The translations under genes and the position numbers were made by a program. This document shows positions 14,518-49,403 of a stretch of DNA of 64,000 bases, piece by piece. The notes beneath the pieces are model-generated. The model saw nothing but the letters and a program-made list of their open reading frames with translations, did no database searches and was not told the origin of the DNA. This stretch comes from a virus: the IMG/VR virus record IMGVR_UViG_3300030447_000342. The stretch is one strand, 5' to 3'. The number at the start of each line of letters is the position of its first letter. Positions within the stretch are counted from its first letter, which is position 1.

Positions 14518-15132
14518 TCAACCAAGGTTACACACAATTTCAACCTCTCCAACTGCATTGTCGCCCAAGATATGTAGCAAAGAATTCGCAATCATGTTGA
14601 CATCAATTCTCCCGTTAAAGCACAATGAAAAGCGCTTCATATCCATACTCTGTTTGGAAGCTGCTTCGTCCAACTTGGTAGCTGGCACATCTTCTACTTC
14701 GGCATCCTCATCAGATGTTTTCCCATGCAGCAATTCATCCCACGCATCCTTTTGCGCTGTACTCATAGAGTGACCAACTGGGAACTTGATATTCAGCTTG
14801 TTCATTTGGATATACCGACGAATCGTAAGTGGTTGCACTCCGAACATGGCGGCAAAACTCGTTGCGTTGGCGCCATAGTTTTCCATCATGTGTTTGAGAT
14901 ACTCTTCTTGCATCGAAGCCGTCAGTGTCTTGAAATCATCCCATGTAATTGGCTGGTTCAAATTAACGGTCACAACTTTCCCATTCCTTTCCTTCCATTG
15001 TTTTTGCGTCATGTGGTCTGTTGACATTGAGCATTTCTTGCTCTTGCTTCCGCACTTGCGGTACTTTGCTTGCTGTGCAATACGTTTACGCTGCCAGCAA
15101 TCATACTCAAAATCAGACATCATTGCGCACAC
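14518..15132 (-). CDS. Hypothetical protein with an HTH-like segment
   Basis: ATSFAAMFGVQPLTIRRYIQ is helix-turn-helix-like. Confidence 0.4.
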   Translation of the reverse strand: MCAMMSDFEYDCWQRKRIAQQAKYRKCGSKSKKCSMSTDHMTQKQWKERNGKVVTVNLNQPITWDDFKTLTASMQEEYLKHMMENYGANATSFAAMFGVQPLTIRRYIQMNKLNIKFPVGHSMSTAQKDAWDELLHGKTSDEDAEVEDVPATKLDEAASKQSMDMKRFSLCFNGRIDVNMIANSLLHILGDNAVGEVEIVCNLG

Positions 15133-15338
15133 CTCATTCTCTTTGAAACTTCGAACTTATCCTCAAGCTCTTTCGGCGTCCGTGCTTTCCCAAGCTTCTT
15201 AAACTCTCCGTCAACAAGCTCATACAGGAAATAAAACTCACGGCTCTCTTTACTGGTAAGAATAAAGCAGAGCTCATGCTCGGCATTATAATATCCCACC
15301 CAGACTCTTTCGCCTTTTGGGTATTTGGGTTCAGCCAA
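15120..15338 (-). CDS. Hypothetical small protein
   Basis: 72 aa, overlapping junctions. Confidence 0.3.
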   Translation of the reverse strand: MAEPKYPKGERVWVGYYNAEHELCFILTSKESREFYFLYELVDGEFKKLGKARTPKELEDKFEVSKRMRCAQ

Positions 15339-16677
15339 GAAGCTCCACCGCCCTCTGCAGCAAAGTATTGTGTTCGTTTTCTAAAGCACCCGAAATCACT
15401 TCATCTAAAAGGCTGTTAAGGATTTCGCCAACACGTTTCCCTTGTTCAATGCCGAGGTTCATAATATCTCTTCCGTTGATTTGCAAGTCTTTTAATGAGA
15501 AACACTGCTCCGCTTCTAAAACCTCAGACATAATAGAACCGAGTGCAATGCATCTTTCGATTCTGGACTCCTGTGTACCCTCTGCATGGGCAAGAATATC
15601 AGCCATCCGCACGTCCAAAAACTGCGAGAACCGACGTTCGCCGAGTTTATGCAGCCATTTGCGGACTGTGCGTGGCGTTGGCTCAATCATAGTGTCGTGA
15701 TAAAGCACGAGTTCAAGAACTTCCTGCTTTGTCTTATTATCGAACCGCAGTCTATCCAAAACTTGTTCTGCAATATCACGGCTTGGTACCCCATGACCGT
15801 GGAAGTGCCCACCGTTTTCATCTTCAGTGTAGCATTGTGGCTTCCCGATGTCGTGGAGTAGTAGGGCTACCTTAACAGACACATCGGTACCCTTGTAGTT
15901 CGCAACAGCGTGGGCAATATGCTCGTACACAGTGTATTGATGATACTTGTTGTTCTGTTCAAACCCAATGCAAGGCTCCATTTCTGGAATAATCGTCGCA
16001 ATAACATCTGAGAAATTCAGCAGCACATTTAAGATGCCGTCGCCGAGCAGCATTTTGCAAAGCTCGCCATTGATTCGCTCTGCAGCAATACGTTTTAGCA
16101 TCCAAGCATCCTTGTGGATGGCAGCGGCTGTCTGTTCTTCGATAGAAAAGCCATAGGTCGCTGCGAATCTCAGCGCTCGCAAAATGCGAAGCGCATCTTC
16201 TTCAAAACGCTCATCAGGATTGCCAACACAGCGAATAATCCCTGCTTGTAAATCATCTCTCCCGTGGAAGGGGTCAATCAATCCAGCACTGTTGTACGCC
16301 ATAGCGTTGATGGTGAAATCCCTGCGAGACAAGTCCTTATAAATGCTCTCGGTAAACTCCACATAATCAGGGTGCCTCCCGTCTGTATAGTTTCCATCAA
16401 TTCGAAACGTTGTGACCTCATACTTCCCAACAGTGCCCATGTCAACCGTTACTGTTCCATGCTGCAGCCCAGTATCAATTGTCTTTATACCATGACGATG
16501 CATTAGTTCCTTAACTTCGTCCGGTGTAGCAGAGGTACAGATATCCCAATCTTTTGGTTCTTTCCCAAGCAAACTGTCTCGGACACATCCGCCAACCACA
16601 TATGCCTCATGGTTTTCATATCGGAGATTCAGCAGAACTGCTCGCGCACCTTTAGGGATAGAAATCCTATGCATCAA
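15331..16677 (-). CDS. cca: CCA-adding tRNA nucleotidyltransferase: PolyA_pol head domain plus HD domain
   Basis: AYVVGGCVRDSLLGKEPKDWDICT..RRDFTINAMAY (class II NTase head). LLLHDIGKP HD motif in the C-terminal half. Confidence 0.8.
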   Translation of the reverse strand: MMHRISIPKGARAVLLNLRYENHEAYVVGGCVRDSLLGKEPKDWDICTSATPDEVKELMHRHGIKTIDTGLQHGTVTVDMGTVGKYEVTTFRIDGNYTDGRHPDYVEFTESIYKDLSRRDFTINAMAYNSAGLIDPFHGRDDLQAGIIRCVGNPDERFEEDALRILRALRFAATYGFSIEEQTAAAIHKDAWMLKRIAAERINGELCKMLLGDGILNVLLNFSDVIATIIPEMEPCIGFEQNNKYHQYTVYEHIAHAVANYKGTDVSVKVALLLHDIGKPQCYTEDENGGHFHGHGVPSRDIAEQVLDRLRFDNKTKQEVLELVLYHDTMIEPTPRTVRKWLHKLGERRFSQFLDVRMADILAHAEGTQESRIERCIALGSIMSEVLEAEQCFSLKDLQINGRDIMNLGIEQGKRVGEILNSLLDEVISGALENEHNTLLQRAVELLG

Positions 16678-17689
16678 TCGCCCTCCTGTTTACACTCATA
16701 ACGAACTCCTCAACTTTCTTCATATCCGGGTTATCTGGGAGGCTCGTGTTTTGTTTTGCATAATTGAGTCGTTTTTCAAAGTCAGAAACCATTTCAAAAA
16801 ACTCTGGTCTATATGTTCCATCTTCCAGTTGATAGTCACCCTTACGGATACTCATCAGCAGAGGCAGGTCATCACCACGATATGTGACAATATCCTCTTT
16901 CTCCAGAATATCCAAGCAGAGAAGGTACAAACGAATAAGATGCATCGCGTGTTTGTTCAAATGCTCATCGTCCTTCTTGTGGTTTCTGTGGTTGAGCTTC
17001 TCATACGTCCCGATAACATTCGTCAGGTCGTTGATTACACTATTGAACTCTCTGACCGGATACTTTTTAAGCTGGATATCTGCAAAAATCTCACGGTCTA
17101 AATCCTCTCGCGGACTCTCATCTGTATAGAGAACAATGCTGCCGTTTTCAAAAATCGTGTATCGACTCTCAAATGATTTAACGGCGCCTTTCATAGAGTT
17201 GAGGATATGTTCCTCTCTTCTTGCCTGTGACAGCCTATCTCGCGCAAGAGCATTCTCCAAGCGCCGGAGCTGCTGATTCGCATAACCTCCAAAAGAATGG
17301 ACTGCTCGTTTGGACAGAAACATTTTTCTGTTGGCAATCATTTCTCTACCAATGTCTGAGATATAGAAATAGTGCTCTGGCTTACACCCAAGCATTTCAA
17401 TCGTATTTGGATTACAATTTAGGAGCAGGCTCACCAGCTTATTAAAAGCATAGATTGTCGTATCCGTTTGTGTATTAACGACCTGCTCAAAGCTCGTCAG
17501 ACCAAGCAAATCTGATTCACTGTTCAACGCACACCCTCTTACATCAACATCGGATGTTTCGACGTTCGTTCCATAGGAATAGCTGCCACCAAGCGTAAGA
17601 AAGATAATCTTGCGCCCGAGGTGCTCGTTTGTTCTAAGGAAATCATAAGCAGAACCGTTGACCATCTCTTTGATTTGCTCAATCGTCAT
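16667..17689 (-). CDS. Pol-beta-superfamily nucleotidyltransferase (PF10127/RlaP-like), of the kind often operonic with RtcB
   Basis: LTLGGSYSYGTNVETSDVDVRG fits the GS..G...SD.D.RG nucleotidyltransferase signature. Confidence 0.55.
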   Translation of the reverse strand: MTIEQIKEMVNGSAYDFLRTNEHLGRKIIFLTLGGSYSYGTNVETSDVDVRGCALNSESDLLGLTSFEQVVNTQTDTTIYAFNKLVSLLLNCNPNTIEMLGCKPEHYFYISDIGREMIANRKMFLSKRAVHSFGGYANQQLRRLENALARDRLSQARREEHILNSMKGAVKSFESRYTIFENGSIVLYTDESPREDLDREIFADIQLKKYPVREFNSVINDLTNVIGTYEKLNHRNHKKDDEHLNKHAMHLIRLYLLCLDILEKEDIVTYRGDDLPLLMSIRKGDYQLEDGTYRPEFFEMVSDFEKRLNYAKQNTSLPDNPDMKKVEEFVMSVNRRAIDA

Positions 17690-17693
17690 AACC

Positions 17694-18908
17694 TTACTCC
17701 TTTTCTTCTCTCGCCCTGAGTGCTGAAATGCACCCAGCTAAAATCTGTGCAGCTCTTACGGCTTCATCAGCCGTGTTTTTCTTTGAGAACGAAATTCTGA
17801 TGGAAGACCGCGCTTCATCTTTGGATAATCCCATTGCAGATAAAACGTGACTTGGTTCTGCTTCGTGACTCCTACACGCAGACCCGGCAGAAACACAAAC
17901 TCCATTGCCGTCCAACATAAGCAAGAGCGTTTCGCCATCAACGCCGTCCATTCTCAAGTTAATTGTCTTTCCGGGTGTAAGAATCGACATACCATTTACA
18001 TGGACGCAGCTTTCATCACCCGTATCTTTAAGCGCTTCATTCAGCGCCATGAAAAATCGCTGTTTCAATGTTGAAACCCACACCGTATCTTCGTGCAAAC
18101 TCTTCGATAAAATCTCACAAGCCCTTCCGAATCCTACGATACCAGCAACATTTTCTGTTCCGCCCCTCAGCCCGAACTCTTGCTCTGAACCACCATATAC
18201 AATGGGTGTAAGTTTGGACTTATCCTTTGCGTACAAAGCTCCAATGCCTTTACACCCATGAATCTTATGTGATGACACCGAAAGGAAATCGCAACCGATT
18301 TTCACTACATCAATAGGATAGCATCCTGCAGCTTGCACGCAATCTGTGTGGAACAGAATCCCGCGCTTCATGCAAATCGTTCCAATATCTTCGATTGGGT
18401 TGATTGCGCCTGTTTCATTGTTCGCAAACATCACAGATACGAGCCCCGTATCTGCCCGTAATGCGTCCTCAATGACAGCAGGAGAGACCCTGCACTCATT
18501 GGATACCGGAATATACTCTACATGAAACCCGTCTTTTATAAGCGATTCTGCGGCTCGTAGGACGGAATCATGCTCAACTGCCGATACCAAAATGTGTGTT
18601 TTCCCAACACTTTTCAGGTAGTCCTTCAATCCATGAAAGACTAAATTGTTTGCTTCACTCCCACCGGATGTAAAAATAATTTGTTCTGGCTCTGCATTGA
18701 TTAAAGCTGCCACTTGCGCTCTAGCTTTCTGCACAGCCTCATTCGCAGCTCGTCCAAACTTATAGAGAGTTCCTGCATTACCGTACTCTGTTGTCAGATA
18801 CGGCATCATTGCATCAAGAACCCGCTCATCCATTTGTGTAGTGGCAGCATTGTCCAAGTAAATCACAAGTGACCACTCCTTTTGTTTTATATGATGCACT
18901 AATACCAC
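17694..18908 (-). CDS. Cysteine desulfurase, class V aminotransferase of the IscS/NifS family
   Basis: IYLDNAATTQMD N-terminus, the SGGSEANN motif and the SxHK lysine region (SVSSHKIHG). Confidence 0.8.
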   Translation of the reverse strand: MVLVHHIKQKEWSLVIYLDNAATTQMDERVLDAMMPYLTTEYGNAGTLYKFGRAANEAVQKARAQVAALINAEPEQIIFTSGGSEANNLVFHGLKDYLKSVGKTHILVSAVEHDSVLRAAESLIKDGFHVEYIPVSNECRVSPAVIEDALRADTGLVSVMFANNETGAINPIEDIGTICMKRGILFHTDCVQAAGCYPIDVVKIGCDFLSVSSHKIHGCKGIGALYAKDKSKLTPIVYGGSEQEFGLRGGTENVAGIVGFGRACEILSKSLHEDTVWVSTLKQRFFMALNEALKDTGDESCVHVNGMSILTPGKTINLRMDGVDGETLLLMLDGNGVCVSAGSACRSHEAEPSHVLSAMGLSKDEARSSIRISFSKKNTADEAVRAAQILAGCISALRAREEKE

Positions 18909-18954
18909 TCATCAAGCGCCTTTCAAAGCCTTGTGGCACAAGTGATTCAAGCCA

Positions 18955-19545
18955 TCATTTATTTCTAACAGCCTCGTTATGCGAATTTGCAGCGATGATT
19001 TCATCAAGCGTCCGAGGAGTGTAATCCATCCACGGCATCATCACCCCGACATTGAACATTTGGCAGGGTTTCGTGTACAGTTCCTCCATCAGATATTTGT
19101 CGTGTTCCATCATGTTCCATTCGAAGGAATTATGGACATGACCATACAGGTGGAAGGAGCCATAAAAGTGATTCTTAAAACATGGAATTGGGTAGTGGCA
19201 AAGAATCACTGTTCGCCCATTGTCCTTCACTTCGAGATACTCTGTGACTTTAACAAACTCTCGTAAGAATTTGTTGTCATTGCACCGGTCATGGTTCCCC
19301 TTAATCAGAAACTTCTGTCCTTTTAAGGAACGCAAAATCGGAATAGCATCTTGTGCCTTACACCAAAACATATCTCCAAGAACGTACACGGTGTCGCCCG
19401 GAGAAACCACAGCATTCCACCGGTCAACAAGAGCCTCGTCCATCTCCAGAAGTGATTTGAACGGACGATTGTCAAAGGCAATCACGTTTGCATGACCATA
19501 ATGCCAATCTGAAATGTAGAACTGTTTATTGCTTTGTTCTTGCAT
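18955..19545 (-). CDS. Calcineurin-like metallophosphoesterase
   Basis: DWHYGH, GDMF and GNHD metal-binding motifs. Confidence 0.65.
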   Translation of the reverse strand: MQEQSNKQFYISDWHYGHANVIAFDNRPFKSLLEMDEALVDRWNAVVSPGDTVYVLGDMFWCKAQDAIPILRSLKGQKFLIKGNHDRCNDNKFLREFVKVTEYLEVKDNGRTVILCHYPIPCFKNHFYGSFHLYGHVHNSFEWNMMEHDKYLMEELYTKPCQMFNVGVMMPWMDYTPRTLDEIIAANSHNEAVRNK

Positions 19546-19828
19546 TTTTCAACTCCTCGATTCTGTTTGCCGCAAGAACAAGCAGCCACTTAGGAACACG
19601 GCTTTCATCTCCCATTCGCCCCGGTGCAAGCGTTGTTCCGTATTGACGGAGGAGAATGACCACTTCGTCATCCAGAATCTGTTTGGCTACGTCGTGCAAG
19701 TTTCCGATTGCCTGTAATTTTTGCGGCTCGTGCGACTTTCTTTTGAGGTACTCCGGCTTACTTGCTGGGCATTCATAGCAAGAATACATCTCATAAATAC
19801 CACAGCCACCGTCTTTATAGCAACTCAT
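19526..19828 (-). CDS. Hypothetical protein
   Basis: 100-aa ORF. Confidence 0.35.
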   Translation of the reverse strand: MSCYKDGGCGIYEMYSCYECPASKPEYLKRKSHEPQKLQAIGNLHDVAKQILDDEVVILLRQYGTTLAPGRMGDESRVPKWLLVLAANRIEELKNARTKQ

Positions 19829-19839
19829 ATTTTTCCTCC

Positions 19840-20154
19840 TTAGAACGGAAGGTGTTCGTCTTGCTCAACACGAATAAGCTCCCGAACCCTTAACAAAAAC
19901 TCTTCCTCATCCAGAGCTTGGATGTCTTGGTATCGTAGGTACTCAATCAATTCATGGACAGCCGTCGTCAGTGCTATATCGATTTTGTTTTCGACATCTG
20001 TCTGCTGGCTCAATAGTTCTTCCGTGTGTCGTCTATTTCGTTCTATTGCCGTGCCTAAATCTCCTTGCGTATTTTCAAGGCGACATTCTAAGCGACCGAG
20101 TTTCTCATAGATATCGCAAATACAAGTGGCAACTTCAGTCGGTGTCATATCCAT
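19840..20154 (-). CDS. Hypothetical protein
   Basis: 104-aa ORF. Confidence 0.35.
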   Translation of the reverse strand: MDMTPTEVATCICDIYEKLGRLECRLENTQGDLGTAIERNRRHTEELLSQQTDVENKIDIALTTAVHELIEYLRYQDIQALDEEEFLLRVRELIRVEQDEHLPF

Positions 20155-20969
20155 TTTTCAACATACTCTCTTTCTTGCGAGAAAATGGGAGGCTCTCGGT
20201 CAATAACCCAACGGTTTCTGAAAACTTCAACCGTTTCAGTATTATTGAGAACAGGGACGGTCTCTCTAACTCTTGTTTTGTAGCAAGCCGAACCACGCTT
20301 ACAGTCAACAGGGAAGTCATTCCAGTTGATTCCGCAGTCCTTCCAGAGCATATCTTGAATAACGTTACAGCTTTTACCATGAAGCTCTTTCTGACTAAAG
20401 TTTGCCTGCCCAACTGCCTCGATACTGTTGCGAGTTGCATCTTGCTGACGCCAAATCAGGCAGTTGCAAACTTCGTCTTTGGGAATAGAAAAAACTCTGG
20501 CATCAAACATGGCTGTACCCATCTTTGCGACCAGAGTTTCAATGTACTTATTTGTGCCATTGTCACTGCTGCGCATTGCTTCGGGGAAGTTCTTCCACAG
20601 CTCAGCAGTATAGGCATTTGAAAAGGCAAGCGTAGCCATCGAAGCGGAAACGCTGCACATCTTTTGGATGTTGTATCCGAACCATGCATCCGTTGTGATT
20701 GTTGCATAGTCTGTAAGCACCAACGTGATTTCATCTGACTGCGTATATCCGAAAACACAACCCTGAATGTTTTCACACAGGTACTTCATTGTGTTTTGCA
20801 TCGTTGTCATCAAGATGCGGTCAAACGGCTTTTCCATACCTCTTGTGAATGTATGAAACGCCTTTCCATCCACTCTGATAATGGTTGGAATCCGACGGGT
20901 CAGATAATTACGAGCGATATTCTCGTAACCTTTCATTCTGTCGCCGAGTGAATCATATTTCTTACTCAA
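20145..20969 (-). CDS. Thg1-like protein (tRNA-His guanylyltransferase / 3'-5' nucleotide polymerase family)
   Basis: IIRVDGKAFHTF, GYTQSDEITLVL, FDARVFSIP..LIWRQQDATRNSI and CGINWNDFP..KRGSACYK align with Thg1 (VVRLDGRNFHRF, YGQSDEYSF, FDGRVVVYP..LSWRQADCHINNL, FNINYNNELP..RKGTVL). Confidence 0.75.
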   Translation of the reverse strand: MSKKYDSLGDRMKGYENIARNYLTRRIPTIIRVDGKAFHTFTRGMEKPFDRILMTTMQNTMKYLCENIQGCVFGYTQSDEITLVLTDYATITTDAWFGYNIQKMCSVSASMATLAFSNAYTAELWKNFPEAMRSSDNGTNKYIETLVAKMGTAMFDARVFSIPKDEVCNCLIWRQQDATRNSIEAVGQANFSQKELHGKSCNVIQDMLWKDCGINWNDFPVDCKRGSACYKTRVRETVPVLNNTETVEVFRNRWVIDREPPIFSQEREYVEKWI

Positions 20970-29701: not shown

Positions 29702-30787
29702 TCAGTCCTTTTCTGCGAGAAGGAAGTCAGGATTGATGACCTTGAAGCTGATGTTGCTCTGGACATTGCGCATAACTACACCTTCTCGTTTTTGTTCCTT
29801 ACGAACCACTGATTTTCCCTTGGAATACTCGACCAGCTCAGCGATAGTTTCGGGCAGGGTCTTGTCCTCCTCAACAATCGGAACAGTCTTAATTCCATAC
29901 GGCTCAAGCAGTTTCTTGATTTCTGCCGTGCCACACTTGTGGTCTGGATAAATCAGGTTGAAGGCAAACAAGTCGTACCCACTAATGTGGTACTTGTTGC
30001 CCTGAATCTGGTTGCCGCAAATCTCACCTTGTAAAACGATGGTTTCATAATCACCGACAAGGTGTTTCAGCACATCTTCGATGTGAAGCTGGCGTGCAAT
30101 CGTCCAGTATGAGCTGTTGTCAGGCGTGCCAAGATAGATATTTCGGCTGCAAACGCCAAACTCATACTTGCGTTTGGAAACTTTGCGCAGGTAATACGTC
30201 GCTGACTGCCCATCAACTTTCTCTGTGACAGAGAACTTCGTTCCCTTGTTACGCTCCATCTCAAAGAGCGTCGTAAGGTTTTGAATGCGGGTCTCATCCG
30301 TCTTGGCAATCCAGTCGGGGAATCCTCCCTTGCGCTTGGGCTTCATAAACAGTTTGCGATACCACTTGAATCGCATCAGGAAGCGAGCGATTGCGCTCTG
30401 CGGTTTTTGCGGTTGCTTCGTCAAGAGCTGTGCTTCTTGCTGCGCTTCTGGGTCATACTTCTTAATGCCCAAAGCGTCTGTCACATCGGCGCCAAGAATG
30501 GCAGGAGTACCATTCGGAAGGATTGACAGTGGGAGAACCAAACCCTGACTGACCTGACCACGCAGCTTAATGGTGCGGACTCTGAACTTTCTGTCTCTCA
30601 AGAACTCGAACTCTGGGCGCTCTGGGACGATAGAATCGACCTCAATGTAAACGATATGCTCTCCTGTATGGAACTCGCCTTTCTGAACCACACATTCCCA
30701 ACCATCGACCTGCGCAACTTCAATGCGGTCAGCTCCTGCAATCGGGCGAAGAGATGCAATCTCACGGATTGTTGCCAAATGTCGCAT
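29702..30787 (-). CDS. ATP-dependent RNA ligase (Rnl family, DraRnl-like with a tRNA-binding-like N-terminal domain)
   Basis: N-terminus LATIREIASLRPIAGADRIEVAQVDGWECVVQKGEF. Nucleotidyltransferase motif I KVDGQSATYY (KxDG). Downstream ligase motifs. Confidence 0.6.
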   Translation of the reverse strand: MRHLATIREIASLRPIAGADRIEVAQVDGWECVVQKGEFHTGEHIVYIEVDSIVPERPEFEFLRDRKFRVRTIKLRGQVSQGLVLPLSILPNGTPAILGADVTDALGIKKYDPEAQQEAQLLTKQPQKPQSAIARFLMRFKWYRKLFMKPKRKGGFPDWIAKTDETRIQNLTTLFEMERNKGTKFSVTEKVDGQSATYYLRKVSKRKYEFGVCSRNIYLGTPDNSSYWTIARQLHIEDVLKHLVGDYETIVLQGEICGNQIQGNKYHISGYDLFAFNLIYPDHKCGTAEIKKLLEPYGIKTVPIVEEDKTLPETIAELVEYSKGKSVVRKEQKREGVVMRNVQSNISFKVINPDFLLAEKD

Positions 30788-36991: not shown

Positions 36992-37212
36992 TCAGCTTTT
37001 CCTCTTTTCTTTAGTTTTTCACCATATTTCGCAAAAAACACAGCAAACGCGAACGGTGCTGCAACAATCCAGAAAACACCTACCATAATATACCCGTCTT
37101 CGAACCCATTATATTTGTTATATGGTTCTACGATAACGTACAAGCGGCAAAGTGCGAATGTTACAATCGCACCAATGCAGAGGTACAGGAGCACTAAAAG
37201 GACTGTCATCAT
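36988..37212 (-). CDS. Hypothetical small membrane protein
   Basis: 74 aa, two TM helices. Confidence 0.35.
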   Translation of the reverse strand: MMTVLLVLLYLCIGAIVTFALCRLYVIVEPYNKYNGFEDGYIMVGVFWIVAAPFAFAVFFAKYGEKLKKRGKAE

Positions 37213-38414
37213 TCCTCTTCACCCGCCTTAAAGTTATAAATCGGCTTGATGATGGCATCAATAGTCACTGTTGGTTCGACATTGTTTACGATATCATCCA
37301 TACCTTTGTATGCCATCGGGCATTCATCGAGCGTGCTTCTTCCAACAGATGTAGTGTAGATACCCTCCATCTGCTTCTTGAACTCAGAAACTGTGAATGT
37401 CTCTTTCGCCGCGCTGCGGCTCATCAAACGCCCAGCTCCATGCGGGGCAGAGAAGTTCCAGTCTTCATTTCCTTTGCCGGTACACAGCAAACTACCGTCT
37501 CTCATGTTGATAGGAATCAGCAGCCGCTCACCAGCTTGTGCAGAGACCGAGCCCTTGCGAAGAATCATATTCTCTACATCGATGTAGTTGTGAATAGTTG
37601 TAAACTGCTCTTCGACATGGAAGCCCATACCCTTAACAATGGTGTCCATCATTGCTTGGCGGTTAAGTTCAGCAAAACGTTGAGCAATTTTCATGTCATG
37701 GATATACTGCTCAAACAATTCTCCCTCAACGTATGCAAGCTGCTTTGGAACTCCCGGCTTCTTCGCCTTCATGCCTTTAAGAACAGATTGGATTTCTTTT
37801 TGTCTTCCAGCCGCTTTTAACTCGTTGACAACCTCCTCGATTTCTTCCTTGGAATACGAGGTTAACGCCTTGAACGCAGCTTCCTGATAGAAGTTAGCAA
37901 TCTCCAGACCAAGGTGTCTACTACCGGAATGCACCACAATATAGATGTGTCCATCATCATCTTTGTTGGCTTCGATGAAATGATTCCCTCCACCAAGCGT
38001 ACCGATGCTTTTATATGCGCGGTCTACATTGACCATCTTTACACAGCACAGTTCCGACAGGTCGATGCTACTTGCATATCTATGAGCTTCTGTGCGAATC
38101 TCGAAACCGGACGGAACTCCTGCACGAATAACTTTGTCCAGCTTCTGCGGTTCGATATGCGTTTCTTTGATACGGATAGTTTCCATGCCGCATCCAATGT
38201 CAACGCCGACAAGGTTCGGGCAAATCTTATCCTTGATGGTCATCGTGGTTCCGATTGTACAACCAGCCCCAGCATGAATGTCTGGCATCATACGGACTTT
38301 GCTTCCCTCGATGTACGGTTGATTCAAAAGATTGATAACCTGAGAGATAGACTCATTATCGACCACGTCGGTAAACACCTTTGCGACGCCAAACTTACCC
38401 TGTAACTCAAGCAT
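37209..38414 (-). CDS. rtcB: RtcB RNA 3'-phosphate/5'-OH ligase
   Basis: MMPDIHAGAGCTIGTT..NLVGVDIGCGM and the HGAGR motif HGAGRLMSR. Confidence 0.85.
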   Translation of the reverse strand: MLELQGKFGVAKVFTDVVDNESISQVINLLNQPYIEGSKVRMMPDIHAGAGCTIGTTMTIKDKICPNLVGVDIGCGMETIRIKETHIEPQKLDKVIRAGVPSGFEIRTEAHRYASSIDLSELCCVKMVNVDRAYKSIGTLGGGNHFIEANKDDDGHIYIVVHSGSRHLGLEIANFYQEAAFKALTSYSKEEIEEVVNELKAAGRQKEIQSVLKGMKAKKPGVPKQLAYVEGELFEQYIHDMKIAQRFAELNRQAMMDTIVKGMGFHVEEQFTTIHNYIDVENMILRKGSVSAQAGERLLIPINMRDGSLLCTGKGNEDWNFSAPHGAGRLMSRSAAKETFTVSEFKKQMEGIYTTSVGRSTLDECPMAYKGMDDIVNNVEPTVTIDAIIKPIYNFKAGEEE

Positions 38415-41278: not shown

Positions 41279-41355
41279 TGGTCTGGGTGAGAGGACTCGA
41301 ACCCCCGACATCTTGCTCCCAAAGCAAGCGCACTACCATCTGTGCTACACCCAGA
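41279..41355 (-). tRNA. tRNA-Pro (anticodon UGG), CCA encoded
   Basis: Cloverleaf parsed by hand. Anticodon loop TTTGGGA closed by CTTGC/GCAAG. T-loop TTCGAGT. 3' CCA. Confidence 0.8.
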
Positions 41356-41383
41356 TATAATGGTTTTGTTTCCGAACACACAC

Positions 41384-41444
41384 GCACTACTGATGGGTTC
41401 GAACCATCCTCACCATAAGCATCGCCATCAATGCTTAGTAGTGC
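41384..41444 (-). ncRNA. Aberrant 61-nt tRNA-like element: acceptor stem and T-arm present, only one internal arm, no CCA
   Basis: GCACTAC..AGCA[ttgatggcga]TGCT..GATGG TTCGAAC CCATC..GTAGTGC. Too short for D-arm plus anticodon arm. Confidence 0.3.
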
Positions 41445-41482
41445 GTGCCGGGGCAGAAAGGAAAACGGATATGTCAGTCCGT

Positions 41483-41558
41483 TGGAGCTGGTGACAGGGC
41501 TCGAACCCGCAACCCAGTGAGTACAAATCACTTGCGCTACCAATTACGCTACACCAGC
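41483..41558 (-). tRNA. tRNA-Thr (anticodon UGU), CCA encoded
   Basis: Anticodon loop TTTGTAC closed by AGTGA/TCACT. Acceptor GCTGGTG/CACCAGC. 3' CCA. Confidence 0.8.
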
Positions 41559-41602
41559 GTGCACCCTCGTCTTTCCGAGGTGTCAGCTTTTAGCTAAAAG
41601 GC

Positions 41603-41671
41603 TGCTGATGACTGGACTTGAACCAGCGGCTCGCACTTCCGGTGCTGCTCTACCAACTGAGCTACATCAGC
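41603..41671 (-). ncRNA. Aberrant tRNA-like element with a truncated anticodon arm (4-bp stem, 5-nt loop), 1-nt variable region, no CCA
   Basis: Normal acceptor GCTGATG/CATCAGC, D-arm GCTC AGTTGGTA GAGC and T-arm GCTGG TTCAAGT CCAGT. The anticodon region GCAC cggaa GTGC cannot form a 7-nt loop. Confidence 0.3.
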
Positions 41672-41785
41672 ATAGATACGCCCTGCGCCCGTAGGACTCC
41701 GTGTGCACCCGGCTGTGTCTCTTACAGAGATAACAGTTGAGTGATGAACTAACCGTACAAACGTAAGCATGACCAACAGAGCAGA

Positions 41786-41861
41786 TGGAGCTGGAACTCG
41801 GAGTCGAACCGAGAACCCACGCTGTACGAAAGCGTTACTCTACCAGTTGAGCTATTCCAGC
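41786..41861 (-). tRNA. tRNA-Thr (anticodon CGU), CCA encoded
   Basis: ACGCT TTCGTAC AGCGT anticodon arm. T-arm CTCGG TTCGACT CCGAG. 3' TCCA. Confidence 0.8.
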
Positions 41862-42020
41862 ATAGATGCCATCCTGAAACTATGGCGATGTCATTAACAC
41901 CACCAATACAAACTCACTATGATGGCAGTTTTGATAGCGTGAAAGGAGAATCATGGATAAATCATCGTGGCACAAGGGATTGCAGGGATAGAAAACAAGC
42001 TCTAATGCCGAAGATGATTT

Positions 42021-42095
42021 TGGCAGGGGCAGTAGGATTTGAACCTACGAATAACGGAGTCAAAGTCCGCTGTGTTACCGCTTCACCATACCCCT
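42021..42095 (-). tRNA. tRNA-Gln (anticodon UUG), CCA encoded
   Basis: GCGGA CTTTGAC TCCGT anticodon arm. D-loop AAGCGGTAA. Acceptor AGGGGTA/TGCCCCT. Confidence 0.75.
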
Positions 42096-42213
42096 GTATC
42101 TGCAGGCTCATGCAGCGGCGTCCCGCCAAACCAACCTGTAACCGACTTCCAGAGCAGGCTCTGACGTGTCGTAAAGGCATTTCCTTTAACGCATAATTTA
42201 ATGGTTTCTTACT

Positions 42214-42290
42214 TGGAGCGGCGTACCAGACTCGAACTGGCACCACCGGTTTGGAAGACCGGAGTGCTAACCGTTGAACACCAACACCGC
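42214..42290 (-). tRNA. tRNA-Gly (anticodon UCC), CCA encoded
   Basis: CCGGT CTTCCAA ACCGG anticodon arm. 3' GCTCCA. Confidence 0.8.
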
Positions 42291-42476
42291 ATGGTCGGCT
42301 TCTCGCTTAGATTGTCACACGCTACCGGCAACTACGCTCCGAAAAGTCGTAGCCCCTATTCCGTCAGGTCAAACCGGTCTTGACGCATCAAGACAAGCGC
42401 AGTTTTCAGCAAGCATTTTCATTCTTTGTGAGGTAAGCCGATAATCTCTCACATCAGTTGGGAGCTACCCAACAAC

Positions 42477-42552
42477 TGGCAGGGGTGAATGGATTCGAAC
42501 CACCATCTGACGGTTTTGGAGACCGCTATGTTAGCCATTGCACCACACCCCT
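42477..42552 (-). tRNA. tRNA-Trp (anticodon CCA), CCA encoded
   Basis: GCGGT CTCCAAA ACCGT anticodon arm. Acceptor AGGGGTG/CACCCCT. Confidence 0.8.
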
Positions 42553-42642
42553 TGGCGGAGTGGACAGGACTTGAACCTGCACATCCTTTCGGATTACTCA
42601 CGGTTTAGCAAACCGCTGCCTTACCGTTAGGCTTACCACTCC
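42553..42642 (-). tRNA. tRNA-Ser (anticodon GCU), long variable arm, CCA encoded
   Basis: GCGGT TTGCTAA ACCGT anticodon arm. Long extra arm. Directly abuts tRNA-Trp. Its 5' end overlaps the stop region of the downstream CDS by ~10 nt. Confidence 0.8.
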
Positions 42643-43314
42643 ATCGGGATTACTTTATTATACAGAGCAATAAACTGCTCATTGACCTGCTTGTCCACAT
42701 GATAATGTCCAAAGAACCACCGCTTGAATGTGAGGTCGGAACAAACCCTATCTAAAAAGCTGACCATCGGGTCGTTCTCGTACCAGCTTGCGAGCAGAGT
42801 CTGAACACTCCTTGGCGCACAATGTGTAATTACATAGTCAACTCGCCAATGATTTTGTTCGAGCGCTGCAATCGCTCGTTCCATTTCTTCTCTGGACGGC
42901 ATTTCCTCTTTCCACCATGAGATATGTTCCACGCGATACTCTTTATCAACAGAGCGAGCACCGCCCATGCAGAAGATTTTCTTTCCATCAATCGTGAGCA
43001 CCTGCCCTCTGTCCAGATGATAGATGTCAGGAGCGATTTCACGCACCTTTCCGCCAAATTTGTCAATCAGCGGGAACTGGTAGAGCATATCAAAGTTCTC
43101 ATGGTTGCCATCAATCCAAAGTGTCGTGAAGTTTTTCGCTGTCAGCCAGTCTTGCCACCACATCTCTCGATGCGAACCGTCCCAGCAGAGTCCAAAATCG
43201 CCACATATGATTACGAAATCATTCTTCGTCAATTCCTTTTGTTGTGGGAACTTTGTTGTATTAAGCTTGGCAATATCAATGTTTGCGTGTGTATCTCCAG
43301 TGACATAAATCATG
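42633..43314 (-). CDS. Calcineurin-like metallophosphoesterase
   Basis: MIYVTGDTHAN, ICGDFG and GNHEN metal-binding motifs. AAAGGAA RBS before the Met at 43314. Confidence 0.65.
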
Positions 43315-43579
43315 CTCAGTTCCTTTCTCATCTGCAGTCCATATGTATATTCTGTTCTGGTCTCTTCGTTTATCTCCTGTAGCGACGGGATTTAGATGAG
43401 CTGAAAGCGAGTTCAAATCCCAAGCGGCGATGATGAAATCATTGGGAGACAATGGGTTCGACAGTCGCTCATCGGATGGAGATGACAAGACATCCCGAAT
43501 AGTTTTAATGAGCTGTACAGCGAGCTTAGGCGCCTTCGCAGCAGGCTGCGGGCGGGGAATTGTGCTGTCCAGCAAAGTG

Positions 43580-43630
43580 ATACTTCAGCCTTTGGCGTGA
43601 AGCACATTCCTTACGAAATGTTATTCACTG
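43580..43630 (-). repeat. Copy A of the conserved two-hairpin RNA-like motif, ~300 nt downstream of the RT gene
   Basis: Minus strand: CAGTGAATAA-[ACATTTC GTAA GGAATGT]-GC-[TTCAC-G-CC AAA GGC TGAAG]. A GNRA-tetraloop hairpin followed by a GCC/GGC-capped hairpin. Confidence 0.6.
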
Positions 43631-43735
43631 CAAATGATAATTTGATTATCCTGTAATCTACATTGAGGTAGCTCCCTACGAGGAGGAGCTCCGGCACCCA
43701 GTGACTGGCGTGCGACATCTTTTGGTCGTCTCGTT

Positions 43736-43762
43736 GAATCCATTGTGGCACAATGGATTCAA
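43736..43762. other. Perfect 12-bp hairpin with a 3-nt loop, inside the structured non-coding region between motif copies A and B
   Basis: GAATCCATTGTG gca CACAATGGATTC. Confidence 0.5.
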
Positions 43763-43861
43763 GTGATTCGGGCTGCTCACCGGTGGTTCGCAGCCTCGAA
43801 GGATGACTTGAGTCTGCAGGTGAATGCGCCTCCGGGGAGGTTTTCCTCCCTATCAAGTTGT

Positions 43862-43912
43862 TACTTATGCCTTTGGCGATAAGCATTGCTTTCGCAATTA
43901 TGCATTACAGGA
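43862..43912 (-). repeat. Copy B of the two-hairpin motif, 20 nt downstream of the RT stop codon
   Basis: Minus strand: CTGTAAT-GCATA-[ATTGC GAAA GCAAT]-GC-[TTATC-G-CC AAA GGC ATAAG]-TAACAA. Confidence 0.6.
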
Positions 43913-43932
43913 TTGCGGGTTATTTATAGACG

Positions 43933-45069: not shown

Positions 45070-45095
45070 TTCTTCCCCTCCTTGTCCAATAACTA

Positions 45096-45104
45096 ACTGT
45101 AACC
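45096..45104. repeat. Short inverted repeat ACTGTAACC, just upstream of the RT start, complementary to the CGTTACAGT segment of motif copy C (a1/a2-like)
   Basis: rc(ACTGTAACC) = GGTTACAGT versus CCGTTACAGT at 45429-45438: 8 of 9 nt match. Confidence 0.3.
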
Positions 45105-45388
45105 TACATATGTCTGCTGCTTCCCAGAATTCCTAAGTCTGAAGACTACGTCGTCCCTGTGGGAGGTGGTGCGAGCTCTTGCAAGATGCGAGATTTTTTT
45201 TCTTTGATTTCATTGCGACTGAAAGCATGAGTCTGATGTTAGCACATTTCGTCCTTGTATCGAAGATTTGGCGAAAAGTGCTTGACATTTGGTTTGCTTT
45301 ATGGCGTGATGCTGCCGACCCGTGGCAGCCGGTTTGCTTTCAGGGTTCCACCGCGTCATCCTCCGGGGGTCATCCTCCCGACAATTTG

Positions 45389-45439
45389 TTACTTTAGCCT
45401 TTGGCGTAAAGCTCTCTTACGAGAAAATCCGTTACAGTC
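45389..45439 (-). repeat. Copy C of the two-hairpin motif, ~320 nt upstream of the RT start
   Basis: Minus strand: CTGTAAC-GGATT-[TTCTC GTAA GAGA]-GC-[TTTAC-G-CC AAA GGC TAAAG]-TAACAA. Confidence 0.6.
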
Positions 45440-45441
45440 TG

Positions 45442-46255: not shown

Positions 46256-46288
46256 ACCTTACCCCCCTCCCTTCGTTCTTTTTGAAAA

Positions 46289-46966: not shown

Positions 46967-46967
46967 A

Positions 46968-49377: not shown

Positions 49378-49403
49378 AGAAACACCTCAATTCATTTTTA
49401 TCT

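What the first reader, a model, noticed from the sequence alone, without database searches (positions are those of the whole stretch)
15331..20969. Phage-encoded tRNA maturation/repair toolkit: CCA enzyme, RlaP-like NTase, cysteine desulfurase, phosphoesterase, Thg1-like 3'-5' polymerase
Together with RtcB (37209-38414), two ATP-dependent ligases (29702-30787, 33017-34291) and a second phosphoesterase (42633-43314), this phage can in principle rebuild tRNA 3' ends (CCA), repair 5' ends (Thg1-like), and reseal anticodon-loop or other breaks (RtcB, Rnl). This is the expected armoury against host anticodon nucleases (PrrC/RloC/VapC/PARIS-like tRNA cleavage). A Thg1-like enzyme in a phage is rare.
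Basis: partly seen in the sequence, partly recalled or inferred. Interest (0 to 1): 0.7.

Follow-up and report, generated by a model that had tools for sequence, protein, structure and literature searches.

The report
Gut phage tRNA end-repair gene block
A very common ~125-kb temperate phage of human-gut Clostridia carries a tight block of intact genes for enzymes that rebuild both ends of tRNAs (a reverse 3'-5' polymerase, an RlaP nucleotidyltransferase and a CCA-adding enzyme) next to a phosphoesterase and a cysteine desulfurase; the kind of toolkit is already known from comparative genomics, so this is a clean new example, not a new principle.

Summary
Window 15331-20969 (minus strand) carries seven tightly packed ORFs. 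Five are enzymes with intact catalytic motifs: a Thg1-like protein (TLP), a metallophosphoesterase, a class I cysteine desulfurase, RlaP and a CCA-adding enzyme with an HD domain. All seven are under strong purifying selection (dN/dS 0.01-0.12).

TLP, RlaP and CCA recur together in diverged relatives, once in a different gene order. TLP neighbourhoods in other phages often hold RNA ligase, RlaP, CCA or phosphoesterase genes. All 13 window tRNA genes encode CCA and have paired acceptor stems, so repair or maintenance fits better than maturation.

Three points do not hold:
- Thg1-like genes are not rare in phages (164 INPHARED records; PHROG 4717).
- The second "ligase" (33017-34291) is a DNA ligase.
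- Relatives that lack TLP, RlaP and CCA still keep the cysteine desulfurase, so synteny does not tie it to tRNA repair. Fe-S supply is an equally good explanation.

Such phage RNA-repair sets (RlaP, CCA, Thg1, RtcB, Rnl, tRNAs, NAD salvage) were described by Iyer et al. 2021. No tRNA-directed activity or counter-defence role was tested here.

Verdict: new member of a known kind, of moderate interest.

The parts
20145..20969 (-). Thg1-like protein (TLP), 274 aa; predicted template-dependent 3'-5' RNA polymerase that rebuilds 5'-truncated tRNA acceptor stems
   Evidence: PF04446 at 5.7e-29 and phrog_4717 at 1.7e-91. Best solved relative is BtTLP 4kgk at 2e-61, with D34/D79/E80 aligned to D30/D75/E76. 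It lacks the HINNLYN-type motif of true Thg1, reading WRQQDATRNSI at 173. E16, R32, D34, D79 and E80 are invariant in 75 phage and prophage relatives. dN/dS is 0.05.
19840..20154 (-). orf104, small conserved protein of unknown function; the sequence looks coiled-coil by eye
   Evidence: No Pfam, PHROG or NCBIfam hit. Conserved at 90-100% in the lineage and 47% in L140; dN/dS 0.10-0.12. Its start overlaps the TLP stop by 10 nt.
19526..19828 (-). orf100, small conserved protein with an N-terminal Cys cluster (C3, C9, C17, C20); function unknown
   Evidence: No family hit. dN/dS 0.06-0.07; 48% identical in L140, and 44% relatives lie about 6 kb from the TLP in L037 and L119.
18955..19545 (-). Metallophosphoesterase MPE1, 196 aa; inferred RNA end-healing phosphoesterase, substrate unknown
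   Evidence: Metallophos 27.7 bits and phrog_547 at 7.5e-46. Motif residues D13, H15, D58, N84, H85, H117, H136 and H138 are invariant. Best solved relative is aq_1665 (1xm7), of unknown function. There is a weak match to ligase-associated PdeM. The family is common in phages, with 1667 INPHARED records.
17694..18866 (-). Class I (IscS/NifS-like) cysteine desulfurase, 390 aa (404 aa if the GTG at 18908 is the start)
   Evidence: Aminotran_5 at 3.8e-81. Aligns with A. fulgidus IscS2 4r5f/4eb5 at 2e-86; PLP lysine K215, catalytic C345 and H113 are present in 404-aa numbering. Below the equivalog cut-offs for NifS (403/531), IscS (331/643) and DndA (361/480). phrog_12787 has 'unknown function'. 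dN/dS 0.05.
16667..17689 (-). RlaP-family Pol-beta nucleotidyltransferase, 340 aa; predicted to add 1-2 nucleotides to the 3'-OH of damaged RNA
   Evidence: PF10127 at 64.4 bits against 23, and a full-length phrog_388 match at 1.7e-52. G35-S36 and D47-x-D49 are invariant. Family activity comes from PMC12776372. No sequence match to a solved structure. dN/dS 0.02.
15331..16677 (-). Class II CCA-adding tRNA nucleotidyltransferase with a C-terminal HD(IG) phosphohydrolase domain, 447/448 aa
   Evidence: PolyA_pol at 1e-37 plus PolyA_pol_RNAbd, HD and tRNA_NucTran2_2. phrog_2244 at 2e-75. NF009814 scores 287.1 against a cut-off of 290. Solved CCA enzymes 6ibp and 1miv align at 3e-54 and 3e-49. Motifs GGxVRD 29-34, DxD 43-45, RRD 118-120, EDxxR 160-164 and HD 275-276 are present. 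Its start overlaps the RlaP stop by 8-11 nt.
15120..15338 (-). orf72, small conserved protein that follows this block directly; function unknown
   Evidence: Follows the CSD directly in L110, L111, L112 and L141, and follows CCA in the window, L139 and L140. dN/dS 0.02. No family hit.
29702..30787 (-). Distal partner: ATP-dependent RNA ligase of the DraRnl/Rnl5 type (N-terminal OB fold plus RNA_ligase)
   Evidence: PF21189 at 5.5e-32 and PF09414 at 4.5e-23. TIGR02306 at 160.9 against 151. phrog_968 at 4.5e-76.
37209..38414 (-). Distal partner: RtcB 3'-phosphate/5'-OH RNA ligase, embedded in the NAD-salvage cluster
   Evidence: PF01139 at 2e-65; phrog_1075 at 5e-142.
42633..43331 (-). Distal partner: second metallophosphoesterase MPE2, 232 aa, abutting the tRNA array
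   Evidence: Metallophos at 8.8e-14; phrog_1649 at 1.1e-40. MPE2-type genes lie within 3 kb of the TLP in 8 of 42 TLP lineages. No solved relative by sequence.
41279..53087 (-). Array of 13 tRNA genes, the presumed clients; all encode 3' CCA
   Evidence: ARAGORN. 3' ends and acceptor stems were read.

Best explanation
The block is an accessory module of a large, tRNA-rich, SPbeta-like temperate phage of gut Clostridia. Its three nucleic-acid enzymes keep tRNA termini, and possibly other small-RNA termini, usable during infection.

Proposed steps:
1. The Thg1-like protein uses the 3' strand of the acceptor stem as template and re-adds lost 5' nucleotides in the 3'-5' direction.
2. [quoted passage not shown] The distal 5'-phosphate ligase (Rnl5-type) can then seal a full-length tRNA.
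3. The CCA enzyme rebuilds the 3' CCA. Its HD domain may clear blocking 2',3'-cyclic or 3'-phosphates.
4. RtcB seals simple 2',3'-cyclic-phosphate/5'-OH breaks directly.
5. The two metallophosphoesterases are the likely end-healing enzymes.

The cysteine desulfurase is a neighbour, not a proven member. It mobilises sulfur, most likely for Fe-S enzymes of the phage (a radical SAM protein, and a probable NrdG partner of its NrdD) and/or for thiolation of tRNAs.

Shown here: gene integrity, family membership, catalytic residues, selection, and co-occurrence in relatives.
Inferred: the substrates, the order of the steps, and the purpose, which would be to counter host or competitor tRNA-damaging nucleases.
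For: - Family membership and intact catalytic residues for all five enzymes.
- Strong purifying selection on every ORF.
- Linkage in relatives. TLP-x-x-MPE1-CSD-x-RlaP-CCA is kept at 70-83% identity in L140. L111, at 58-68% identity, holds the same five genes in another order: MPE2-TLP...RlaP-CCA-MPE1-CSD. RlaP, CCA and TLP lie within 7 kb in a Clostridiaceae genome, L120. RlaP and CCA are adjacent in every family member that has them.
- Wider association. Across 42 TLP lineages (85% clusters), the genes found within 10 kb are Rnl in 14, RlaP in 10, MPE2 in 9, MPE1 in 8 and CCA in 7.
- Repair fits better than maturation. All 13 window tRNA genes, and 6 more in a close relative, encode CCA. No acceptor-stem mismatch was seen.
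- Biochemistry of the families. BtTLP repairs 5'-truncated tRNA (PMC3061083 abstract; PMC3701042). RlaP adds 1-2 NMP to RNA 3'-OH and prefers cleaved-tRNA mimics (PMC12776372).
- The same window holds RtcB, an Rnl5-type ligase, NAD salvage, macro and NADAR genes. This matches the counter-defence sets described for large phages (PMC7824862).
Against: - No activity, expression or phenotype data exist for this phage.
- The five-gene block is confined to one phage family. TLP neighbourhoods in Bacillus, Staphylococcus and Fusobacterium phages look different. 15 of the 42 TLP lineages have none of these genes within 10 kb.
- CSD is retained without TLP, RlaP or CCA in L110, L112 and L141. MPE1 is retained without them in L110.
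- RlaP is not next to a ligase here. The nearest RNA ligase is 12 kb away.
- My literature searches found no bacterial defence known to trim tRNA 5' ends. The characterised systems cut the anticodon arm or T-loop. The TLP's natural substrate is therefore unknown.
- The module lies between the integration and repressor genes, a typical hot-spot for unrelated accessory genes.
- The neighbourhood enrichment was judged only against a rough uniform-placement expectation, not a proper null.
Confidence: 0.55

Rival explanations
1. Accessory-gene hot-spot. The genes are independently useful cargo that accumulates between the recombinase and the repressor. They share no pathway, and the adjacency reflects where insertions are tolerated.
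For: Presence and absence is mosaic among relatives. L139 lacks the TLP. L110 has MPE1 and CSD with FolD, GP88 and a PAPS-reductase-like gene in place of RlaP, CCA and TLP. L112 and L141 have CSD alone. A 91%-identical TLP sits in another context beside NAD-salvage genes in L045. HNH/AP2 homing-endonuclease-like genes lie nearby.
Against: RlaP and CCA always travel as an overlapping pair. The TLP/RlaP/CCA trio reassembles in a different order in L111 and recurs in L120. RNA-repair genes recur near TLPs in many unrelated lineages.
Confidence: 0.25
2. Housekeeping support for the phage's own large tRNA set, not damage repair. This would mean routine CCA-end turnover repair, 5'-end proofreading after processing, and thiolation (s2U34, s4U8) of phage tRNA-Lys(UUU), Gln(UUG) and Glu(UUC) with sulfur from the desulfurase.
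For: There are at least 19 tRNA genes in close relatives, including the three s2U34-type tRNAs. The CSD lies in the same block. In Firmicutes, dedicated desulfurase/thiolase pairs serve tRNA thiolation (B. subtilis YrvO-MnmA and NifZ-ThiI; my own knowledge, not tested here).
Against: Every tRNA gene examined already encodes CCA, and none has a 5' mismatch needing editing. No tRNA-His gene was seen in the roughly 80 kb examined: the 64-kb window, about 10 kb beyond its right end and about 6 kb beyond its left end. No phage MnmA, ThiI or TtcA thiolase was found among the ORFs scanned. CSD persists in relatives without the other enzymes.
Confidence: 0.2
3. Lysogenic-conversion function. The block is expressed from the prophage and protects the lysogen's tRNAs against tRNase toxins of competitors (colicin-, CDI- or toxin-antitoxin-type) or of superinfecting phages.
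For: The block lies between the large serine recombinase (21483-22640) and the S24/HTH repressor (11981-12850, opposite strand), where temperate phages often keep prophage-expressed genes. Contigs of 200-400 kb carry these genes, which suggests integrated copies.
Against: The block has the same orientation as the long run of replication and nucleotide-metabolism genes. No promoter or terminator evidence was found either way. The companions RtcB, NAD salvage and tRNAs are typical lytic-cycle counter-defence genes.
Confidence: 0.1
4. For the cysteine desulfurase alone: it is a sulfur donor for DNA phosphorothioation (DndA- or SspA-like), not for RNA or Fe-S work.
For: The DndA model TIGR03235 scores 361 bits, and solved DndA and SspA structures align. 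PAPS-reductase-domain genes (the DndC/SspD fold class) lie 3-5 kb upstream of the CSD in L110 and L141.
Against: The score is below the DndA cut-off of 480, and the NifS model scores higher. No PAPS-reductase-like gene occurs in the window by tblastn, and no DndCDE or SspBCD hit appeared among the ORFs scanned.
Confidence: 0.05

Closest known systems
Phage RNA-repair and translation-rescue gene sets described by comparative genomics (Burroughs & Aravind 2016, NAR 44:8525; Iyer et al. 2021, Viruses 13:63, PMC7824862)
   Same: The repertoire is the same: RlaP, CCA-adding enzyme, Thg1, RtcB and ATP-dependent RNA ligases, phosphoesterases, many tRNA genes, and NAD salvage, Macro and NADAR genes in one genome.
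   Different: This genome is about 125 kb, temperate and SPbeta-like, from gut Clostridia, not a jumbo phage. TLP, RlaP and CCA lie in one compact block. RlaP is paired with CCA, not with a ligase. A cysteine desulfurase sits inside the block, and that paper never mentions one (0 occurrences).
Bacillus thuringiensis Thg1-like protein (BtTLP, PDB 4kgk/4kgm)
   Same: Sequence match at E 2e-61. The catalytic D/D/E, E12 and R28 equivalents are conserved, and the eukaryotic Thg1 anticodon-recognition motif is absent.
   Different: The phage protein has an insertion of roughly 20-30 residues around positions 120-151 and is phage-encoded. Neither protein has a known physiological substrate.
Phage T4 Pnkp-Rnl1 tRNA repair against the PrrC anticodon nuclease
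   Same: The logic is the same: a phage repairs tRNA damage inflicted by host abortive-infection nucleases (established knowledge; cited).
   Different: No Pnkp-type kinase-phosphatase or Rnl1 was found here. Sealing would rely on RtcB or an Rnl5-type ligase. The block adds end-rebuilding polymerases (TLP, RlaP, CCA) that the classical T4 pathway does not use, although T4 does encode an RlaP, NrdC.11.
Pseudomonas RtcB-RlaP-RtcA operons (PfRlaP and PaRlaP, PMC12776372)
   Same: An RlaP-family nucleotidyltransferase with the GS and DxD motifs, in a genome that also encodes RtcB.
   Different: Here RlaP overlaps a CCA-adding enzyme gene and lies 19.5 kb from rtcB. No RtcA was found. No sequence-level match to a solved structure.
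Large (~130 kb) Clostridioides difficile temperate phages (AR1086-1, pCD1602_4)
   Same: They are the closest cultured relatives for RlaP (48%) and CCA (46%). Genome size is similar, NrdD/NrdG are present, and AR1086-1 has a KptA RNA 2'-phosphotransferase near RlaP.
   Different: No DNA-level similarity was found. In AR1086-1 these genes are annotated as hypothetical, and no desulfurase or Thg1 is annotated within the roughly 7 kb either side of RlaP that was inspected.

Membership tests
Thg1/TLP 3'-5' polymerase superfamily (PF04446) | Match to the Thg1 catalytic (palm) domain above the curated threshold | tested here: met
   101.1 bits against 29.2; phrog_4717 at 1.7e-91.
Thg1/TLP 3'-5' polymerase superfamily (PF04446) | Three conserved carboxylates (hTHG1 D29/D76/E77; BtTLP D30/D75/E76) | tested here: met
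   D34, D79 and E80 align to them. They are invariant in 75 relatives.
TLP subgroup (as opposed to true tRNA-His guanylyltransferase) | Closest to bacterial TLPs, and lacking the Thg1 HINNLYN-type motif that reads the His anticodon | tested here: met
   BtTLP matches at 2e-61 against 2e-4 to 4e-8 for eukaryotic Thg1 chains. The region reads WRQQDATRNSI where the Thg1 chains read ..HINNLYN...
TLP subgroup | Template-dependent 3'-5' addition to 5'-truncated tRNA | not testable with these tools
   Needs an enzyme assay.
Class II CCA-adding tRNA nucleotidyltransferase | Head-domain motifs A (GGxVRD..DxD), B (RRD) and D (EDxxR) | tested here: met
   Found at positions 29-45, 118-120 and 160-164.
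Class II CCA-adding tRNA nucleotidyltransferase | Score above NCBIfam's equivalog cut-off for a CCA enzyme | tested here: inconclusive
   NF009814 scores 287.1 against 290. PcnB and A-adding models score far below their cut-offs. Sequence alone does not settle CCA-adding versus CC- or A-adding specificity.
RlaP (PF10127) nucleotidyltransferases | Pfam match above threshold, with the Pol-beta GS and DxD motifs | tested here: met
   64.4 bits against 23. G35, S36, D47 and D49 are invariant. The third catalytic Asp reported for PfRlaP could not be mapped with confidence.
RlaP (PF10127) nucleotidyltransferases | Gene adjacency to an RNA ligase, the feature the family is named for | tested here: not met
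   The neighbours are a CCA enzyme and a desulfurase. Rnl lies 12 kb away and RtcB 19.5 kb away.
Class I cysteine desulfurases (IscS/NifS) | PLP-binding lysine, catalytic cysteine loop and active-site histidine | tested here: met
   K215, C345 and H113 in the alignment to 4r5f.
Specific desulfurase equivalogs (NifS, IscS, DndA) | Score above the curated equivalog cut-off | tested here: not met
   NifS 403/531, DndA 361/480, IscS 331/643. The subfamily and the sulfur acceptor stay unassigned.
Calcineurin-like metallophosphoesterases | Motifs DxH, GD, GNH(D/E), H and GHxH | tested here: met
   D13/H15, D58, N84/H85, H117 and H136/H138 are invariant.
RNA end-healing phosphoesterases (for example the Pnkp phosphatase module) | Detectable homology to a characterised 2',3'-cyclic phosphodiesterase or 3'-phosphatase acting on RNA | tested here: not met
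   For MPE1 the only solved sequence relative is aq_1665, of unknown function. MPE2 has none. The role is inferred from neighbourhood only.
Phage tRNA repair system (functional class) | Restores tRNAs damaged during infection and rescues phage growth | not testable with these tools
   Needs genetics and tRNA end sequencing.

The most novel reading that the evidence does not exclude
The block, with RtcB and Rnl5, is a complete pathway that rebuilds both strands of a damaged tRNA acceptor end and then restores the lost thio-modification, with the desulfurase feeding host MnmA or ThiI. If so, gut Clostridia would possess undiscovered immune nucleases that attack tRNA 5' and 3' termini rather than anticodon loops. 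It would also give bacterial-type Thg1-like proteins their first physiological role. The natural presence/absence variants of this abundant phage family (L139, L110 and L141 against the window and L140) would serve as ready-made knock-outs.
Probability: 0.15. Interest if true: 0.7.

Novelty: new member of a known kind. Interest (0 to 1): 0.4.

Why it matters
The physiological role of bacterial-type Thg1-like proteins is still open. A 2019 review of the family does not mention phages at all. Phage RNA-repair sets rest mostly on gene-neighbourhood inference.

This phage is extremely common in human gut metagenomes. The exact TLP sequence is indexed in 1,196 blocks of the assembly collection and the exact DnaB in 15,670. 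It carries TLP, RlaP and CCA as one compact unit, and natural relatives lack parts of that unit. That makes it a practical system for asking what damages tRNA ends in gut Firmicutes and whether phages repair that damage.

The embedded cysteine desulfurase is the least expected element. This family gives only 59 INPHARED hits, many of them short unannotated records, and its PHROG has no assigned function. It deserves its own test.

Tried and rejected
- Megablast of 12-24 kb against INPHARED found no match, so no named phage could be assigned.
- Sequence searches of solved structures with RlaP and MPE2 gave nothing. MPE1 hit only a protein of unknown function.
- The promoter and terminator scan found fewer promoter-like sites than shuffled sequence and about as many terminator-like sites. 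It gives no operon boundaries.
- The exact-sequence look-up of the Pol III alpha protein failed. DnaB was used instead to see the left flank.
- Burroughs & Aravind 2016 (PMC5062991) is not held in the library. It is cited only through Iyer et al. 2021.
- Mitochondrial-type 5' editing of phage tRNAs was considered and rejected. All 13 acceptor stems pair at positions 1-7.
- De novo CCA addition to phage tRNAs was considered and rejected. All 19 genes checked encode CCA.
- G-1 addition to a phage tRNA-His was considered. No tRNA-His gene was found in the roughly 80 kb examined, but the genome was not covered fully, so this stays open.
- A TcdA- or ThiF-type partner for the desulfurase was considered. 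The ThiF-like gene (46289-46966) is 27 kb away, is below every equivalog cut-off and matches ThiF and Cap2-like E1s best. No link could be made.
- Structure prediction was not used. The enzymes already have clear sequence-level assignments, and a fold match would not reveal the substrate of the phosphoesterases.

Full report
**What is there**

On the minus strand of window 15331-20969 lie seven ORFs. In order of transcription they are:
- a Thg1-like protein (TLP, 20145-20969, 274 aa)
- orf104 (19840-20154)
- orf100 (19526-19828)
- a metallophosphoesterase (MPE1, 18955-19545, 196 aa)
- a cysteine desulfurase (CSD, 17694-18866, 390 aa; 404 aa if the upstream GTG at 18908 is the start)
- an RlaP nucleotidyltransferase (16667-17689, 340 aa)
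- a CCA-adding enzyme with an HD domain (15331-16677, 448 aa)

All five enzymes pass Pfam's curated thresholds. Four match PHROG families with the corresponding names. The desulfurase matches a PHROG of "unknown function".

Spacing runs from a 20-nt overlap to an 88-nt gap. RlaP/CCA, TLP/orf104 and orf100/MPE1 overlap. A consensus scan found no convincing internal promoter or terminator, but the scan was uninformative overall. Co-transcription is therefore plausible, not shown.

**Are the genes functional?**

The TLP aligns with the solved Bacillus thuringiensis TLP (4kgk) at E 2e-61. D34, D79 and E80 fall on BtTLP D30, D75 and E76, the carboxylates shown to be essential (PMC3701042). E16 and R32 match BtTLP E12 and R28. 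In 75 phage and prophage relatives down to 44% identity these residues are invariant.

The protein is of the TLP type. It matches BtTLP far better than eukaryotic Thg1 chains, and it reads WRQQDATRNSI where Thg1 has its HINNLYN-type segment.

The other enzymes:
- CCA enzyme: motifs GGxVRD/DxD, RRD and EDxxR plus an H..HD..D set. It aligns with solved CCA-adding enzymes 6ibp and 1miv at 3e-54 and 3e-49. It misses NCBI's CCA equivalog cut-off by 3 bits.
- RlaP: the GS and DxD motifs are present.
- MPE1: all metallophosphoesterase motifs are present.
- CSD: the PLP lysine, the cysteine loop and the histidine of class I desulfurases are present.

Against natural variants at 90-99% amino-acid identity, dN/dS is 0.01-0.12 for all seven ORFs and for the flanking orf72 and orf166. 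These are real genes under selection.

**What the element is**

The window is part of a large temperate phage.
- It encodes Pol III alpha, DnaG, DnaB, an ERF recombinase and a PD-(D/E)XK nuclease.
- It has a large serine recombinase and an S24/HTH repressor on the opposite strand.
- It has 13 tRNA genes.
- To the right of the window are proteins with YonV and YonG domains (SPbeta-type) and six more tRNA genes in close relatives.
- To the left are ThyX, a dNMP kinase and NrdD.

IMG/VR contigs of about 120-133 kb carry the block. The exact TLP protein is indexed in 1,196 blocks of the assembly collection and the exact DnaB in 15,670, mostly human-gut assemblies. No named phage matches at DNA level.

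The closest genome hit for the TLP is a Flavonifractor contig at 65%. The closest cultured relatives for RlaP and CCA are roughly 130-kb Clostridioides difficile phages at 46-48%. The host is therefore probably a gut clostridial lineage; this is inferred.

**Is the grouping meaningful?**

Within the phage's own lineage (37 loci above 90% identity) the block is invariant, which says little. More distant relatives are informative.

| Locus | CSD identity | Arrangement |
|---|---|---|
| L140 | 75% | TLP-x-x-MPE1-CSD-x-RlaP-CCA, same order as the window |
| L139 | 67% | MPE1-CSD-RlaP-CCA, no TLP; a PTH2 peptidyl-tRNA hydrolase and a NADAR gene lie upstream |
| L111 | 58% | All five genes, rearranged: MPE2-TLP...RlaP-CCA-MPE1-CSD |
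| L120 (Clostridiaceae genome) | not applicable | RlaP, CCA and TLP within 7 kb |
| L110 | 59% | MPE1 and CSD with FolD, GP88 and a PAPS-reductase-like gene; no TLP, RlaP or CCA |
| L112, L141 | 58%, 70% | CSD alone |

In every case the CSD block is followed by the same small gene, orf72.

I clustered TLP-bearing loci from IMG/VR, GTDB genomes and INPHARED at 85% TLP identity, giving 42 lineages, and counted genes within 10 kb:

| Family | Lineages with it within 10 kb |
|---|---|
| Rnl-type ligase | 14 |
| RlaP | 10 |
| MPE2-type phosphoesterase | 9 (8 of them within 3 kb) |
| MPE1-type phosphoesterase | 8 |
| CCA | 7 |
| NAD-salvage genes | 4-5 per gene |
| CSD | 2 (the window's own lineage and its partial copy L034) |

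15 lineages had none of these. In Bacillus phage FADO, Staphylococcus phage PMBT8 and Fusobacterium phage FNU3 the TLP sits among hypothetical genes.

A gene placed at random in a roughly 130-kb genome that has one such partner would fall within 10 kb about 15% of the time. The Rnl, RlaP and MPE2 figures therefore look enriched, but I did not compute a proper null.

My reading:
- TLP, RlaP and CCA, and loosely a phosphoesterase and an RNA ligase, form a fluid but recurrent association.
- RlaP-CCA is a tight pair in this family.
- The desulfurase is a stable resident of the locus whose retention does not depend on the RNA enzymes.

**Repair or maturation?**

All 13 tRNA genes in the window end in CCA. 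So do six further tRNA genes in a close relative. The CCA enzyme is thus not needed to complete the phage's own transcripts.

All 13 acceptor stems pair at positions 1-7 (read). Mitochondrial-style 5' editing is therefore not required.

No tRNA-His gene appeared in the roughly 80 kb examined. This weakens a G-1-addition role but does not exclude it.

These points favour maintenance or repair of damaged ends. They do not identify the damage. The tRNA-directed defences I could find in the literature cut anticodon arms or T-loops, not 5' ends.

**Mechanism proposed**

The enzyme steps come from family biochemistry. Their order and the in vivo substrate are inferred.
- Simple anticodon-loop or other breaks with 2',3'-cyclic-phosphate and 5'-OH ends are sealed by RtcB (37209-38414).
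[quoted passage not shown] An Rnl5/DraRnl-type ligase (29702-30787; TIGR02306 above cut-off) then seals the 3'-OH/5'-P ends.
- Lost 3' CCA is rebuilt by the CCA enzyme. Its HD domain and the two metallophosphoesterases are candidates for removing blocking phosphates.
- Lost 5' nucleotides of the acceptor stem are re-added by the TLP, using the 3' strand as template (PMC3061083, PMC3701042, PMC4820378).

**The desulfurase**

Two clients are plausible for the mobilised sulfur, and I cannot separate them.
- Fe-S enzymes of this anaerobe phage: a radical SAM protein at 54639-55451, and an NrdG activase as the expected partner of the NrdD seen to the left of the window. NrdG itself was seen only in the C. 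difficile relative.
- tRNA thiolation: the phage encodes tRNA-Lys(UUU), Gln(UUG) and Glu(UUC).

A DndA-like role in DNA phosphorothioation is less likely.

**Comparison with what is known**

Iyer et al. 2021 (PMC7824862) describe large phages that combine tRNA genes, RtcB and ATP-dependent RNA ligases, kinases and phosphoesterases, RlaP, the CCA-adding enzyme and, "sporadically", Thg1. They also describe NAD salvage, Macro and NADAR genes. Their source for the RNA-repair inference is Burroughs & Aravind 2016.

The window also has NadE, a DarG-like macro domain, NAMPT, a PRPP synthetase-like gene, a nicotinamidase-like gene and NADAR. The finding is thus a new, compact and very prevalent example of a known kind.

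Prevalence in INPHARED by tblastn, out of 50,697 records:

| Family | Records with a match |
|---|---|
| MPE1-like | 1,667 |
| CCA-like | 408 |
| RlaP-like | 292 |
| TLP | 164 |
| CSD | 59 (many are short unannotated records or uncultured faecal contigs) |

The Thg1-like gene is uncommon but not rare. The desulfurase is the scarcer item.

- 33017-34291 is an ATP-dependent DNA ligase (DNA_ligase_A_M plus an OB domain; phrog_114), not an RNA ligase.
- The second phosphoesterase ORF ends at 43331.
- RlaP is not ligase-adjacent here.

**Verdict**

Observation confirmed. Interpretation partly supported. New member of a known kind. Interest is moderate. The module offers a tractable, abundant natural system for the unresolved physiological role of bacterial-type TLPs, and it contains an unexplained phage desulfurase. 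Nothing found here departs from the established picture.

Noticed in passing
window 34301-39779 and 27160-27789: An NAD-centred counter-defence cluster is interleaved with RtcB. It holds NadE (34301-35047), a DarG-like macro domain (35049-35501), NAMPT (35501-36991), a PRPP-synthetase-like gene (38434-39222) and a nicotinamidase/isochorismatase gene (39219-39779). A NADAR-domain protein lies at 27160-27789.
   Followed up: partly
window 43933-45069: A phage-encoded retron-type reverse transcriptase lies beside the tRNA array and MPE2. The NCBIfam retron St85 RT model scores 175 bits, below its cut-off of 235; RVT_1 scores 1e-19. No msr/msd RNA or effector was looked for.
   Followed up: no
window 46289-49377: A ThiF/E1-like adenylyltransferase (46289-46966) lies among the tRNA genes. 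Its best models are ThiF and the anti-phage '6A-MBL cap2_3' protein, all below cut-off. It is followed by two large ORFs with no family match (46968-47945 and 47884-49377). A possible link to the desulfurase could not be established.
   Followed up: partly
window 10873-11733 and 11981-12850: A MazF/PemK toxin gene (10873-11379) follows a small upstream ORF (11410-11733). The pair sits at the head of the leftward operon, which diverges from the S24/HTH repressor. MazF leaves 2',3'-cyclic-phosphate/5'-OH ends, the kind RtcB seals, so the phage may both cut and repair RNA. This is speculation.
   Followed up: no
loci L038, L048, L050, L065, L124, L125, L131, L132 (TLP at about 10001 in most): An MPE2-type metallophosphoesterase lies within 3 kb of the TLP in 8 of 42 otherwise unrelated TLP lineages, often directly adjacent. 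I did not find this TLP-phosphoesterase pairing in the papers I read. It might point to a 5'-end processing partner.
   Followed up: partly
protein P0020; window 40775-41257: One 79%-identical relative of the desulfurase is recorded as a 451-aa protein carrying DUF3990 (PF13151) fused to the desulfurase domain. The window encodes a separate DUF3990 protein at 40775-41257. The fusion could be real or a gene-calling read-through.
   Followed up: no
L110 4161-4976; L141 2293-3267: In relatives that lack TLP, RlaP and CCA, a PAPS-reductase-domain (PP-loop) gene lies 3-5 kb upstream of the desulfurase. The window has no homologue.
   Followed up: partly
window 58000-60000: There is a local GC jump to 0.56 with positive GC skew and strongly negative AT skew. 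Long ORFs overlap on both strands, and 58942-60015 carries a LuxR/sigma-70 region-4-like HTH. This region may be foreign or non-coding.
   Followed up: no
window 31544-32434; L086 7389-8198: An SPFH/Band 7 (prohibitin-like) gene is present in the window. One also lies two genes downstream of the TLP in Fusobacterium phage FNU3.
   Followed up: no
L139 2659-3526; L142 1220-1831: Relatives carry further RNA and translation rescue genes near the same locus. L139 has a PTH2 peptidyl-tRNA hydrolase, a YAcAr domain and NADAR. C. difficile phage AR1086-1 has a KptA RNA 2'-phosphotransferase about 5 kb from RlaP.
   Followed up: no
window 53008-53087: ARAGORN calls an unusual 80-nt tRNA-Asp(GTC) here. 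In the close relative L135 the corresponding position (1058-1130) is called a 73-nt tRNA-Ala(TGC). The identity of this tRNA-like gene is uncertain.
   Followed up: no
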